Positions 9,401-12,400 of a stretch of DNA of 64,000 nucleotides are shown here, piece after piece; positions within the stretch are counted from its first letter, which is position 1; every line of letters starts with the position of its first letter. Origin of the DNA: Escherichia coli. Lineage in GTDB: Bacteria > Pseudomonadota > Gammaproteobacteria > Enterobacterales > Enterobacteriaceae. Where the stretch lies: assembly GCF_041248615.1 (NCBI RefSeq), contig NZ_CP158426.1. One strand, given 5' to 3'. A program made the position numbers.

Positions 9401-12400
9401 TAATGTCATCAGTAATTACGCTGTCATCCAGTTTCGCATAACAGATACTGTCATCACCGGCTTCAATATAACTGGAAAAATTTTCGCTGATAAAACGGTA
9501 GAAAAGTGCGCCCAGAACGTATTGCTTAAAATCCCATCCGTCAACAGAACCTCTGACATCATTGGCAATTTGCCATATCTGGCGGTGCAGTTCTGCTCGT
9601 TGTTGAATACTTGTCATTTTTAATCCATTTTCCTGGTTTGGACCTGAATCATTGAGGGCAATTCTACAGCAATCTTGTGGTTCAGGCAGCCCCGGAGTAA
9701 GTCGGTGTACATTGTGAGATACCTGGGGTATTCACGACAAGGAGGAGGAACGGAATATTGCCTTTCCTTTGCAGTGCACCAGGTGCATTCTAAATAATTT
9801 CAGACAGATATTATCTCCGTGAATCCCCCGCCACCTTTCCGGTGCGCGGGGTTTTGTCTTTTTTCACCGGGAATACATGTATGAATCCGTCTGATGCCAT
9901 TGAGGCAATTGAAAAACCACTTTCTTCCCTGCCTTACTCACTTTCCCGTCACATCCTGGAACATCTGCGCAAACTCACCAGCCACGAACCCGTGATTGGC
10001 ATTATGGGGAAAAGCGGGGCCGGTAAATCCTCACTCTGTAATGCACTGTTTCAGGGGGAGGTCACCCCGGTCAGTGATGTTCACGCCGGCACCCGGGAAG
10101 CGCAGCGCTTCCGTCTGAGTGGCCATGGTCACAGCATGGTTATCACTGACCTGCCCGGGGTGGGCGAGAGCCGGGACAGGGATGCAGAGTATGAAGCCCT
10201 GTACCGTGACATTCTGCCTGAACTTGACCTGGTACTGTGGCTGATTAAAGCCGATGACCGTGCCCTGTCTGTGGATGAGTATTTCTGGCGACACATCCTG
10301 CACCGGGGACATCAGCGGGTACTGTTTGTGGTGACGCAGGCCGATAAAACGGAGCCCTGCCATGAATGGGATATGGCCGGTATTCAGCCTTCTCCCGCAC
10401 AGGCACAGAACATTCGCGAAAAAACGGAGGCGGTATTCCGTCTGTTCCGGCCCGTACATCCGGTTGTGGCCGTATCGGCCCGCACCGGCTGGGAACTGGA
10501 TACGCTGGTCAGTGCGCTCATGACAGCACTTCCCGACCATGCCGCCAGTCCCCTGATGACCCGCCTGCAGGACGAGCTGTGCACGGAATCTGTCCGGGGG
10601 CAGGCCCGTGAACAGTTTACCGGTGCGGTGGACCGGATATTTGACACGGCGGAGAGCGTCTGTGTTGCCTCTGTGGCTCGTACGGTTCTGCGTGCCGTCC
10701 GTGACACGGTGGTCTCTGTTGCCCGCGCTGTATGGAACTGGATTTTCTTCTGAACACTCTGCCAGGGGAAATGCCTGATTACATTGCGTTAACCAACTGA
10801 AAACATGACACAAACACCTCATACCCACCTCTTTCTCTTGCGTGACTGCCTTGCTGTTAATAGAATAAAACGATCGATAAAACAGGTATCGATCGTTGTA
10901 ATCGATCGTTTATGGTGGTTAATGGTCTGCGAAAAGGCAGCTGAATCTCTTCATCATGCAGAACGGAATTGCACACAACGGACTGATACTTCTCTGGCGG
11001 ATGAGAGAGGGGAAGCATTTATGTCCGGGAAAAACCACTTTATCTGACCATGCTGTTTTGTACCTGCCGGTATCCACATTTGTGGGTACCGGCTTTTTTA
11101 TTCACCCTCTGTAAGGAAAAGCTGATGAAACGACATCTGAACACCAGCTACAGGCTGGTATGGAATCACATTACGGGCACCCTGGTGGTGGCTTCCGAAC
11201 TGGCCCGCTCACGGGGAAAACGCGCCGGTGTGGCGGTTGCGCTGTCTCTTGCTGCTGTCACGCCAGTCCCGGCACTGGCTGCTGACACGGTTGTAGAGGC
11301 GGGAGAAACCGTGAACGGCGGAACACTGACAAATCATGACAACCAGATTGTCTTCGGTACGACCAACGGAATGACCATCAGTACCGGGCTGGAGTATGGG
11401 ACGGATAACGAGGCCAATACCGGCGGACAATGGATACAAAATGGCGGTATCGCCAACAACACTACTGTCACCGGTGGTGGTCTTCAGAGAGTGAATGCCG
11501 GAGGAAGCGTTTCAGACACGGTTATCAGTGCCGGAGGCGGACAGAGCCTTCAGGGGCAGGCAGTGAACACCACTCTGAACGGCGGTGAGCAGTGGGTACA
11601 TGAAGGCGGGATTGCAACGGGTACCGTCATTAATGAGAAGGGCTGGCAGGCCGTCAAATCCGGCGCAATGGCAACCGACACGGTTGTGAATACCGGCGCG
11701 GAAGGGGGACCGGATGCAGAAAATGGTGATACCGGGCAGTTTGTTCGCGGAAATGCCGTACGTACCACTATCAATGAAAATGGTCGTCAGATTGTGGCTG
11801 CTGAAGGAACAGCAAATACCACTGTGGTTTATGCCGGCGGCGACCAGACTGTACATGGTCACGCACTGGATACTACGCTGAATGGGGGGTACCAGTATGT
11901 GCACAACGGCGGTACGGCGTCTGACACTGTTGTAAACAGTGACGGCTGGCAGATTATCAAGGAAGGTGGTCTGGCGGATTTCACCACCGTTAACCAGAAA
12001 GGCAAACTGCAGGTGAACGCCGGTGGTACCGCCACACATGTCACCCTGAAACAGGGTGGAGCACTGGTCACCAGTACTGCGGCAACGGTTCTTGGCAGCA
12101 ACCGTCTGGGCAATTTCACGGTGGAAAACGGTAAGGCTGACGGCGTTGTTCTGGAGTCCGGCGGTCGCCTGGATGTACTGGAAGGCCATTCAGCGCAGAA
12201 AACACGGGTGGATGACGGCGGAACCCTGGCAGTGTCTGCCGGTGGTAAGGCAACAGGTGTCACCATGACATCCGGTGGTGCCCTGATTGCAGACAGTGGT
12301 GCCACTGTTGAGGGGACCAATGCCAGCGGTAAGTTCAGTATTGATGGCATATCCGGTCAGGCCAGCGGCCTGCTGCTGGAAAATGGCGGCAGCTTTACGG

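What the first reader, a model, noticed from the sequence alone, without database searches (positions are those of the whole stretch)
9881..10753. YeeP/YkfA-family GTPase sits between the R-M cluster and flu
This P-loop GTPase family recurs at the edge of CP4-like islands and has no established function. Here it is divergently adjacent to hsdM. Any role in defence or island maintenance is speculation from position alone.
Basis: inference. Interest (0 to 1): 0.4.

Follow-up and report, generated by a model that had tools for sequence, protein, structure and literature searches.

The report
Island-backbone GTPase beside restriction genes
This is an intact copy of a common E. coli GTPase gene of unknown function that opens the conserved half of a mobile genomic island; the restriction genes beside it are swappable cargo, not partners.

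Summary
Window 9881-10753 (+) encodes an intact 290-aa YfjP/YeeP/YkfA-family GTPase, 263 bp from and divergent to hsdM, and upstream of flu. It is already annotated and is present in about 85% of complete E. coli genomes. I found no paper that tests its function.

- **Position.** It is the first gene of the conserved right arm of CP4-type islands (GTPase, DUF932, antirestriction, RadC, YeeU/CbtA, DUF4942). Ag43 is a later insertion. The R-M genes fill a variable cargo slot that ends 97 bp before the start codon. Elsewhere that slot holds other type I R-M systems, DarTG, CBASS, ParA or IS debris.
- **Protein.** The predicted fold (pLDDT 91) is a G domain with a small helical stalk. The closest solved structures are the IRG immunity GTPases and dynamin-like proteins, not Era.
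- **Relatives.** Family members ride as cargo on 5-kb plasmids, form tandem pairs in other phyla, and are absent from phages.
- **Leader.** A conserved promoter-like element is followed at once by an intrinsic-terminator hairpin. Similar terminators sit directly before DUF932 and DUF4942. This suggests control by antitermination, which is inferred and untested.

A defence or exclusion role remains possible but unproven.

The parts
9881..10753 (+). CDS of the 290-aa YfjP/YeeP/YkfA-family GTPase (G1 at 10007-10030, G3 at 10148-10159, G4 TQAD at 10334-10345, amphipathic C-terminal helix ending WNWIFF at 10733-10750)
9784..9880 (+). Conserved 97-bp leader that travels with the GTPase gene. In most E. 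coli copies similarity starts at 9784-9787, and everything to the left is variable cargo.
9788..9814 (+). Promoter-like element: -35 TTCTAA (9788-9793), a 15-nt spacer holding the conserved TTTCAGA motif (9794-9808), and -10 TATTAT (9809-9814). The predicted transcription start is about 9819-9821.
   Evidence: Motif conserved across the 97%, 60%, 50% and 43-45% identity clades. K-12 ykfA and yfjP have RpoD-holoenzyme binding sites read as TTGAAA-15-TATCAT (PMC3946193). The strict consensus scan found no promoter here.
9826..9864 (+). Leader hairpin (arms 9826-9835 and 9841-9851) plus T-run (9852-9864), ending 16 nt before the ATG. It has the form of an intrinsic terminator.
   Evidence: The structure is kept while the sequence differs between clades. 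In the 50% clade, 5 of 12 pairs show compensatory changes.
9618..9783 (.). Spacer specific to the hsdM-GTPase junction. The full 263-bp intergenic region is shared by only 640 of 4182 matching records.
3633..9617 (-). Type I R-M cargo: hsdR 3633-6749, hsdS 6871-8064, hsdM 8061-9617. It occupies the variable slot and is not part of the GTPase unit.
10870..11106 (+). IsrC/IS102 small RNA and the agn43 regulatory region (three GATC sites) with its terminator at 11066-11093
11125..13971 (+). Ag43/Cah autotransporter. It is an insertion between the GTPase and DUF932 that is specific to the E. coli-type clade.
14229..14258 (+). Strong terminator-like hairpin that ends 39 nt before the DUF932 start codon
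   Evidence: The 50% clade has an equivalent hairpin in the GTPase-DUF932 spacer.
14298..15116 (+). DUF932 gene, the conserved downstream partner of the GTPase (directly adjacent in the 50% clade; called the yfjPQ operon in K-12)
15207..19025 (+). Rest of the right arm: antirestriction 15207-15692, RadC/JAB 15708-16184, DUF987 16253-16474, YeeU 16554-16922, CbtA 17012-17395, DUF5983 17386-17874, DUF957 17886-18083, DUF4942 18180-19025
18123..18149 (+). Terminator-like hairpin that ends 30 nt before the DUF4942 start codon
19124..19199 (-). tRNA-Ile at the right end of the island

Best explanation
Shown: this is a functional gene under purifying selection for a YfjP-family GTPase. It is the first gene of the conserved right arm of CP4-type integrative islands, in the order GTPase, (Ag43 insertion), DUF932, antirestriction, RadC, DUF987, YeeU/CbtA, DUF4942. 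The R-M genes to its left are interchangeable cargo in a slot that ends 97 bp before the start codon. The protein is a TRAFAC-class G domain carrying the GxxGxGKSSxxNAL P-loop signature. N- and C-terminal helices pack into a small stalk. The last helix is cationic and amphipathic and ends in WNWIFF. The fold is closest to IRG and dynamin-like GTPases. The gene carries its own conserved leader: a sigma-70-type promoter-like element, followed within a few nucleotides of the predicted start by a GC-rich hairpin and T-run. Similar hairpins stand directly before DUF932 and DUF4942, leaving no room for promoters. Inferred: the right arm is off, or throttled, by default, and is expressed when RNA polymerase is made terminator-resistant, in the manner of lambda Q or P. 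aeruginosa AlpA. The factor could be island-encoded. The GTPase would then be made together with the antirestriction and RadC functions, when the element is induced or newly established. There it most likely acts as a GTP-dependent, self-associating switch at the membrane that serves the element, in establishment, maintenance or exclusion of competitors. It does not act on the adjacent R-M system or on Ag43.
For: - **Identity and selection:**
- **Synteny:** in 25 or more enterobacterial loci at 44-97% identity, the GTPase lies upstream of DUF932 and the YeeU/CbtA module on the same strand. It is directly adjacent to DUF932 in the 50% clade.
- **Variable upstream neighbour:** ten E. coli loci show hsdM, ParA plus hypotheticals, YfjI, IS66 debris or a roughly 300-aa hypothetical. 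CBASS fills the slot on pNDM-CIT.
- **Boundary:** similarity starts 97 bp upstream of the ATG.
- **Leader:** the motif, hairpin and T-run are present in all distinct enterobacterial leaders examined. Stem sequences are unrelated between clades and compensatory changes occur within one clade. A truncated GTPase remnant keeps the same leader.
- **Promoter:** RpoD holoenzyme binds upstream of K-12 ykfA and yfjP, read as TTGAAA-15-TATCAT and assigned to a yfjPQ operon (PMC3946193).
- **Further terminators:** directly before DUF932 and DUF4942.
- **Precedent:** a binding element in the promoter spacer plus a downstream terminator defines AlpA control in P. aeruginosa (PMC7969949). Related islands encode AlpA-family proteins.
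Against: - No transcript-start, termination or expression data were available, so the promoter and terminator are predictions. The -35 hexamer is weak, and the strict promoter scan found nothing.
- Where a co-directional gene lies upstream, the hairpin could simply be that gene's terminator.
- The island AlpA-family protein shows no detectable sequence match to the solved P. aeruginosa AlpA. It matches only a generic AlpA-family chain (E 0.005) and TorI.
- The window has no AlpA, YfjI, YfjJ or YfjR homologue.
- Plasmid-borne relatives lack both the leader and DUF932, so the protein does not need the right arm to be useful.
- Membrane binding and dimerisation are inferred from the model and from the behaviour of related GTPase classes.
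- The DUF932 model was too poor to use (pLDDT 57).
Confidence: 0.45

Rival explanations
1. The GTPase is an autonomous defence or exclusion effector. It would be a compact prokaryotic counterpart of the IRG/dynamin-like immune GTPases (compare Eleos LeoA/LeoBC and DynA), assembling on membranes on GTP binding to block phage or competing mobile DNA. Islands and plasmids would carry it for that benefit.
For: - The closest solved folds are the IRG immunity GTPases and dynamin-like LeoA/BDLP.
- In PADLOC its strongest matches are LeoBC and LeoA: 2.9e-7 for this protein and 1e-11 to 1e-13 for plasmid relatives.
- Some relatives pass Pfam's IIGP cut-off: pAV1 32.6 bits, P0178 and P0146 25.4 bits, against a cut-off of 24.
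- Relatives are among the few accessory genes on 4.8-5.9 kb mobilisable plasmids. On the 5.9-kb plasmid the gene sits in an apparent operon with an EcsC protein that matches defence candidate PDC-S29 at 2.7e-10.
- On pAV1 the gene sits among toxin-antitoxin and R-M genes.
- Tandem paralogue pairs occur outside Enterobacterales, as in dynamin pairs.
- The family is absent from phage genomes.
Against: - It matches no known or candidate defence family beyond the shared G domain.
- It occupies a fixed backbone position with strong sequence conservation, not the high-turnover cargo slot next to it.
- No phage-sensitivity phenotype has been reported.
- It lacks the long stalk and paddle of dynamin-like defence proteins (290 aa against 560-740 aa).
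- A promoter-proximal terminator is unusual for a standing defence gene.
Confidence: 0.25
2. The GTPase is a ribosome-associated GTPase of the Era/EngA/EngB type, as the common annotation '50S ribosome-binding GTPase' implies.
Against: - Matches cover the G domain only, about 125-150 residues.
- Every NCBIfam equivalog score is far below its cut-off: Era 52.5 against 237, Der 47 against 307.
- There is no KH or other RNA-binding domain.
- The P-loop lacks the Asn of the K+-dependent Era/EngA/MnmE class; it reads GKSGAGKS (class rule from my own knowledge).
- Full-length structural matches are to IRG, not Era.
- The gene is accessory, island-borne and multi-copy.
Confidence: 0.04
3. The GTPase is a functional partner or regulator of its immediate neighbours, the type I R-M system or Ag43/flu.
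For: Physical adjacency in this window. The exact hsdM-GTPase junction recurs in 640 records. Type I R-M lies within 7 kb upstream in 4 of 10 E. coli loci and in several other genera.
Against: - Most copies have other upstream neighbours.
- The shared DNA stops 97 bp upstream of the gene.
- Ag43 is absent between the GTPase and DUF932 in the 50% and 60% clades.
- flu has its own well-known OxyR/Dam switch and IsrC region.
Confidence: 0.03
4. The GTPase is an evolutionary relic with no current function in this degraded island.
For: - The island here lacks an integrase, AlpA and replication-like genes.
- Many truncated copies exist in databases, and yeeP is a pseudogene in K-12 (K-12 status from my own knowledge).
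Against: - This copy is intact with all catalytic motifs.
- dN/dS is 0.07-0.17 between E. coli copies and within clades that diverged to saturating dS.
- All ten sampled full-length copies are intact.
Confidence: 0.05

Closest known systems
YfjP / YeeP / YkfA GTPases of E. coli K-12 cryptic elements CP4-57, CP4-44 and CP4-6 (NCBI 'GTPase family protein'; the CDD YfjP subfamily, from memory)
   Same: Same family. The protein is 49% identical over its full length to copies annotated ykfA and about 97% identical to the common E. coli yeeP-type copies. The genes share the synteny with flu or DUF932 and the same leader motif and -10 element.
   Different: Nothing essential differs. This copy is intact, whereas K-12 yeeP is a pseudogene (my own knowledge), and its upstream cargo is a type I R-M system.
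Immunity-related GTPases (IRG/p47: Irga6/IIGP1, Irgb6, Irgb10)
   Same: These are the best full-length structural matches: Foldseek E about 1e-8, about 285 aligned columns, TMq 0.52-0.57. Both have a G domain flanked by N- and C-terminal helices and share the P-loop context GxxGxGKSSxxNAL (IRG motif from my own knowledge). The profile match to Irgb10 is E 1.2e-13 over residues 29-240.
   Different: The protein is about 100 residues shorter, with a much smaller helical domain. Its Pfam IIGP score is 15.7 bits, below the cut-off of 24. It is bacterial and carried on a mobile element. There is no evidence of membrane attack or of any immune role.
Bacterial dynamin-like proteins (LeoA/LeoBC of the Eleos defence system, BDLP, DynA, IniA)
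   Different: At 290 aa against 560-740 aa, it has no long stalk, paddle or transmembrane region. It is not recognised as Eleos.
Era / EngA / EngB ribosome-assembly GTPases
   Same: G-domain sequence and fold.
   Different: There is no KH or second G domain. All equivalog scores fall far below their cut-offs. The gene is accessory and island-borne.
Q-type / AlpA-type promoter-proximal antitermination units (lambda PR'-tR'; P. aeruginosa PalpB-tB)
   Same: A conserved element lies in the spacer between -35 and -10, an intrinsic terminator lies just downstream, further terminators lie inside the operon, and AlpA-family genes occur in related islands.
   Different: The terminator begins about 5 nt after the predicted start, against 54 nt for tB. 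The spacer motif (TTTCAGAyAkA) is unrelated to GGGACG-N5-GGTA. No factor, binding or read-through has been shown. The island AlpA-family protein is not detectably similar to the solved antiterminator.

Membership tests
YfjP/YeeP/YkfA-family GTPase | Full-length sequence similarity to named members | tested here: met
   49% identity over 289 of 290 residues to copies annotated ykfA. A relative at 86% identity is named 'YfjP family GTPase'. PGAP annotates the gene as 'GTPase family protein'.
YfjP/YeeP/YkfA-family GTPase | Intact G1-G5 motifs and family-specific invariant residues (N54, Y104, Y108, D116, W120, R127, P159) | tested here: met
   Alignment of 35 members at 28-63% identity, with positions confirmed.
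YfjP/YeeP/YkfA-family GTPase | Location in CP4-type island, upstream of DUF932 and the YeeU/CbtA module | tested here: met
Era-like ribosome-binding GTPase (Era, EngA/Der, EngB) | Score above the curated equivalog cut-off; KH or tandem G domains | tested here: not met
   Era scores 52.5 against 237, Der 47 against 306.7, and YihA/EngB 35.9 against 124.5. The model has helices only after the G domain.
Dynamin superfamily / Eleos (LeoA, LeoBC) | Dynamin-type G domain | tested here: inconclusive
   Dynamin_N scores 37.8 bits against a cut-off of 27, but covers only profile positions 99-167. LeoBC scores 2.9e-7 over residues 10-126.
Dynamin superfamily / Eleos (LeoA, LeoBC) | Long helical stalk with a paddle or membrane domain; protein of 550 aa or more; LeoA plus LeoBC gene pair | tested here: not met
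   The protein is 290 aa with a roughly 70-residue C-terminal helical hairpin. No Leo partner is present in the window.
IRG (IIGP, PF05049) | Pfam score above the gathering cut-off | tested here: not met
   This protein scores 15.7 bits against a cut-off of 24. Relatives pass: pAV1 32.6 bits, P0178 and P0146 25.4 bits.
IRG (IIGP, PF05049) | Overall fold: G domain between N- and C-terminal helical domains | tested here: inconclusive
   IRGs are the top Foldseek hits over nearly the full length, but TMq is only 0.52-0.57 and the helical domain is much smaller.
IRG (IIGP, PF05049) | GTP-dependent oligomerisation on target membranes | not testable with these tools
   This needs biochemistry. Only an amphipathic C-terminal helix is seen.
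Known or candidate anti-phage defence system (PADLOC-DB v2) | Significant full-length match to a system protein model, with system partners nearby | tested here: not met
   Only partial G-domain or P-loop matches were found.
Q/AlpA-type antitermination unit | Conserved element between -35 and -10 of the promoter | tested here: met
   TTTCAGAyAkA is conserved in the 15-nt spacer across four clades. Protein binding to it was not tested.
Q/AlpA-type antitermination unit | Intrinsic terminator downstream of the promoter and upstream of the regulated genes | tested here: met
   Hairpin plus T-run at 9826-9864, with further terminators at 14229-14258 and 18123-18149. These are predictions from sequence only.
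Q/AlpA-type antitermination unit | A cognate antiterminator encoded by the element | tested here: inconclusive
   AlpA-family genes occur in related islands, but none is in the window. There is no detectable similarity to the solved P. aeruginosa AlpA.
Q/AlpA-type antitermination unit | Factor-dependent read-through of terminators | not testable with these tools
   This needs reporter assays or in vitro transcription.

The most novel reading that the evidence does not exclude
YfjP-family GTPases are compact prokaryotic relatives of the IRG/dynamin-like immune GTPases. They act on their own as exclusion or defence effectors carried by mobile elements, which would explain why they sit on 5-kb plasmids. 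In CP4-type islands their expression, and that of the whole antirestriction/RadC/DUF932 arm, would be gated by a promoter-proximal terminator that an island-encoded, Q- or AlpA-like processive antiterminator overrides.
Probability: 0.15. Interest if true: 0.75.

Novelty: already known. Interest (0 to 1): 0.4.

Why it matters
YfjP, YeeP and YkfA are among the uncharacterised 'y' genes of E. coli K-12. Homologues occur, often in several copies, in about 85% of complete E. coli genomes, and no function is known. Three points from this work make the question testable:

- The gene marks the fixed boundary of a cargo slot that repeatedly holds defence systems (type I R-M, DarTG, CBASS, RnlAB). The conserved 97-bp leader can therefore serve as an anchor for mining cargo.
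- The fold points to the IRG/dynamin-like class rather than to ribosome GTPases, so the common '50S ribosome-binding' label is misleading.
- A terminator-gated leader, and terminators before DUF932 and DUF4942, predict that the right arm is silent under laboratory conditions unless an antiterminator is supplied. That could explain why knock-outs show nothing.

If the family proved to be an immune or exclusion effector, it would add a bacterial relative to a vertebrate innate-immunity GTPase class.

Tried and rejected
- **PADLOC, PHROGs and NCBIfam scans of the protein.** They returned only generic G-domain matches and no named system or equivalog.
- **Rfam at a permissive threshold over 9000-20000.** Nothing matched the leader; only IsrC and the tRNA were found.
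- **Cross-clade RNAalifold of 22 leaders.** It gave no consensus because MAFFT cannot align hairpins of unrelated sequence. I replaced it with per-sequence folding and a within-clade alignment.
- **DUF932 structure prediction.** It reached only pLDDT 57, so I did not search with it.
- **AFDB50 fold search.** It was unavailable.
- **BFVD fold search.** It returned only giant-virus GTPases and no phage proteins.
- **Longer homologues (400-715 aa).** I scanned them for informative fused domains and found none in Pfam.
- **Contigs of distant homologues.** They were too short to give context beyond the tandem GTPase pairs.
- **Literature searches on YeeP, YkfA, YfjP, DUF932 and IRG-like defence.** No functional study turned up. 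The E. coli defence-island survey does not mention the gene.
- **The island AlpA-family protein against solved structures.** There was no match to the P. aeruginosa antiterminator, so I do not name AlpA as the factor.
- **The 265-aa antisense ORF 10031-10828.** I rejected it as not conserved.
- **Regulation of Ag43 or a partnership with R-M.** I rejected both because those neighbours are clade-specific or variable.
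Full report
**Observation**

The window is E. coli NRZ14408 chromosome NZ_LT599825.1, positions 800001-864000. 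An ORF from the ATG at 9881 to the stop at 10753 on the + strand encodes 290 aa. It is identical to the RefSeq CDS WP_089541421.1 'GTPase family protein'. hsdM (8061-9617) lies on the other strand 263 bp away, followed by hsdS and hsdR. The Ag43/flu CDS begins at 11125.

The gene is real and under selection.
- Pfam MMR_HSR1 scores 5e-15.
- All G motifs are intact.
- dN/dS is 0.07-0.17 against nine other copies and within two deeper clades.
- Matching DNA is found in 4586 of 5426 complete E. coli genomes, with a median of two places per genome and up to nine.
- The long antisense ORF at 10031-10828 is not conserved.

**The protein**

A 35-sequence alignment reaching 28% identity keeps the following motifs:
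- G1, GKxGxGKSSLxNAL
- a switch-I CTR
- DxPGxGE
- LDLxLWVIKADDRA
- a G4 variant [NT]QxDK
- a C-terminal W-x-x-F tail

AlphaFold2 gives a confident model (pLDDT 91, pTM 0.89). Two N-terminal helices and a C-terminal helical hairpin flank the G domain.

By sequence, the nearest solved chains are the Era and EngA G domains over about 125 residues. Irgb10 is matched over residues 29-240.

All NCBIfam equivalogs of ribosome GTPases fall far below their cut-offs. In PADLOC its strongest matches are LeoBC and LeoA, and these are weak.

The last helix (262-290) is strongly amphipathic and cationic and ends in WNWIFF. There is no transmembrane segment.

I conclude that this is a compact member of the septin/IRG/dynamin-like branch of TRAFAC GTPases. 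It is not an Era-type ribosome factor. Self-association and peripheral membrane binding are inferences from that class.

**The neighbourhood**

I fetched 73 loci from one genome per species and mapped the window's island proteins onto them. In every enterobacterial locus with enough sequence, at 44-97% identity, the GTPase lies upstream of DUF932, (ArdB), RadC, (DUF987), YeeU, CbtA and DUF4942, on the same strand.

In the 50% clade, which includes K-12 YkfA and YfjP, DUF932 follows after about 100 bp. In the 60% clade a DeoR-WYL regulator and small secreted proteins intervene. In the E. coli-type clade Ag43 has been inserted.

Recurrent upstream genes in other genera are AlpA-family, YagK/YfjJ (Gp2-like) and a roughly 300-aa protein of unknown function.

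In ten E. coli loci the gene immediately upstream is different each time:
- hsdM
- ParA plus two hypotheticals, with DarTG and a type I R-M beyond them
- IS66 debris
- YfjI
- a roughly 300-aa hypothetical
- a second type I R-M
- a restriction S-subunit remnant

On the IncHI plasmid pNDM-CIT a complete island carries a CBASS operon in the same slot. In K-12 the slot holds rnlAB (gene order in PMC3946193).

Megablast of the 263-bp intergenic region shows that in most copies similarity begins only 94-97 bp before the ATG. The full hsdM-type spacer is shared by 640 of 4182 records.

The GTPase is therefore the first backbone gene after the island's cargo slot. Its adjacency to R-M is a property of the slot. 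The window's island is a remnant: it has no integrase, AlpA, YfjI, YfjJ or YfjR and is bounded by IS5 on the left and tRNA-Ile on the right.

**Beyond the islands**

tblastn finds essentially no family members in 50,697 phage genomes, and only giant-virus GTPases appear in BFVD.

Members do occur as accessory genes on very small plasmids.
- 5.9-kb ColE1-type mobilisable plasmids carry an apparent operon of EcsC, a 144-aa protein and the GTPase. The EcsC protein matches defence candidate PDC-S29 at 2.7e-10.
- 4.8-kb Col156 plasmids carry the GTPase alongside a Rep gene and two other annotated ORFs.
- On Acinetobacter pAV1 the gene sits among toxin-antitoxin and R-M genes.

These relatives score higher on LeoA and LeoBC, and one passes Pfam's IIGP cut-off.

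Outside Enterobacterales the family often forms tandem paralogue pairs. It lies near DUF932, YqaJ/RecT, a relaxase and MoxR-VWA genes in Firmicutes and Betaproteobacteria. The protein can therefore be useful without DUF932 or the right arm. This keeps an autonomous exclusion or defence role alive.

**The leader**

All enterobacterial clades share TTTCAGAyAkATATyATC just upstream of the gene (window 9798-9815).

Read as a promoter, it is -35 TTCTAA (9788-9793), a 15-nt spacer and -10 TATTAT (9809-9814). This corresponds to the TTGAAA-15-TATCAT sites at which RpoD holoenzyme binds upstream of K-12 ykfA and yfjP, the latter assigned to a yfjPQ operon (PMC3946193).

Directly downstream comes a GC-rich hairpin and T-run (9826-9864), ending 16 nt before the ATG. 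The hairpin is present in every distinct leader, but its sequence is unrelated between clades. Within the 50% clade, 5 of 12 pairs show compensatory changes. A truncated GTPase remnant in one locus keeps the same leader.

Equally strong hairpin-plus-T-run elements sit in three further places:
- ending 39 nt before the DUF932 start (14229-14258)
- ending 30 nt before the DUF4942 start (18123-18149)
- in the GTPase-DUF932 spacer of the 50% clade

None of these leaves room for a promoter, so the downstream genes can only be expressed by reading through a terminator.

P. aeruginosa AlpA and lambda Q use this layout: a binding element in the promoter spacer, then an intrinsic terminator (PMC7969949). 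Related islands also encode AlpA-family proteins.

This reading is inference. I have no transcript data. The strict promoter scan finds nothing. The island AlpA-family protein does not detectably match the solved antiterminator. The hairpin could in some contexts simply end an upstream gene. A possible outer pairing (GUGAA 9819-9823 with UUCAC 9863-9867, covarying in other clades) is unexplained.

**Most likely mechanism**

With confidence about 0.45, the GTPase is a backbone gene of the element and is co-expressed with the antirestriction, RadC and DUF932 functions when terminator read-through is switched on. It would act as a GTP-dependent, self-associating, membrane-proximal switch for the element's benefit.

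The rivals are:
- an autonomous IRG/dynamin-like defence or exclusion effector (0.25)
- a relic (0.05)
- an Era-like ribosome GTPase (0.04)
- a partner of R-M or Ag43 (0.03)

The context and identity claims are shown by the evidence. The regulation and the biochemical mode are inferred.

**Comparison and novelty**

The gene is a typical, already annotated member of the YfjP/YeeP/YkfA family in a well-known island type, so as a feature it is already known. I found no published function. As far as I could find, three things are not described and are directly testable:
- the IRG-like fold assignment
- the role of the 97-bp leader as the fixed edge of a defence-rich cargo slot
- the terminator-punctuated architecture of the right arm

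I score interest at 0.4.

Noticed in passing
window 10870-11106 (+): The IsrC/IS102 small RNA (Rfam RF00124, 71.8 bits) covers the agn43 regulatory region with its three GATC sites. Its terminator is at 11066-11093, between the GTPase and flu.
   Followed up: partly
window 14229-14258 and 18123-18149 (+): Strong terminator-like hairpins end only 30-39 nt before the start codons of DUF932 and DUF4942, leaving no room for a promoter. The 50% clade has an equivalent, covarying hairpin in the 100-bp GTPase-DUF932 spacer (L008-L028).
   Followed up: partly
window 9819-9823 with 9863-9867: GUGAA, just after the -10 element, can pair with UUCAC, just after the T-run, enclosing the terminator hairpin. 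Other clades have CUGAA/UUCAG, UUGAA/UUCGA and GUGAG/CUCAC. Whether this helix forms depends on the unknown transcription start, and its function is unexplained.
   Followed up: partly
window 1842-3485 and 19124-19199: The island is a remnant. It has no homologue of AlpA, YfjJ/YagK (Gp2-like) or YfjR (tblastn), and no integrase or YfjI is annotated. On the left are an IS5-family ISKpn26 element (2505-3485) and a truncated GntP permease (1842-2255). On the right, the DUF4942 end, not an integrase, abuts tRNA-Ile. Lactate-utilisation genes lie further left. This suggests rearrangement.
   Followed up: no
L005 (Kluyvera) 9-6300 and L007 (Photorhabdus) 507-7000: HsdR and HsdM proteins 87-94% identical to those in the window lie upstream of GTPases that are only 58-60% identical. 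The same R-M cargo has therefore moved between diverged islands in different genera.
   Followed up: no
L094 (pNDM-CIT) 4250-8593; L078 1-5098; K-12 rnlAB (PMC3946193): The slot directly upstream of the GTPase leader holds a CBASS operon (CD-NTase, E1/E2, JAB, SAVED) on an IncHI plasmid-borne island. Elsewhere it holds DarTG plus a type I R-M, and RnlAB in K-12. It looks like a defence-cargo hotspot with a fixed right boundary.
   Followed up: partly
L079 (E. coli FORC_044) 13301-17654: In an O157-type island, a large dynamin family protein (794 aa), an RdcB-family protein and a patatin-like phospholipase lie between Cah and DUF932. This puts a second, unrelated dynamin-like GTPase in the same arm.
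   Followed up: no
L079 17700-17737; L002 12842-12859: A second copy of the promoter motif (TTGAAA-15-TATTAT with TTTCAGA in the spacer) lies 270-600 bp upstream of DUF932 in some E. coli-type islands. It has no adjacent hairpin. The window lacks this copy.
   Followed up: partly
L075 (5.9-kb plasmid of E. coli ETEC1738) 1782-4176: A small ColE1-type mobilisable plasmid carries an apparent operon of an EcsC-family protein (PADLOC PDC-S29, 2.7e-10), a 144-aa protein with no Pfam or PADLOC match, and a GTPase 44% identical to the one in the window.
   Followed up: partly
L033, L036, L037, L039, L041, L083: Outside Enterobacterales (Zoogloea, Aquaspirillum, Bacilli, Oligoflexales, Deltaproteobacteria) the family occurs as tandem pairs of paralogous GTPases about 1 kb apart.
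   Followed up: no
window 10031-10828 (-): A 265-aa antisense ORF overlaps nearly the whole GTPase gene. It is broken in E. albertii and all other clades, so it is a chance ORF.
   Followed up: yes
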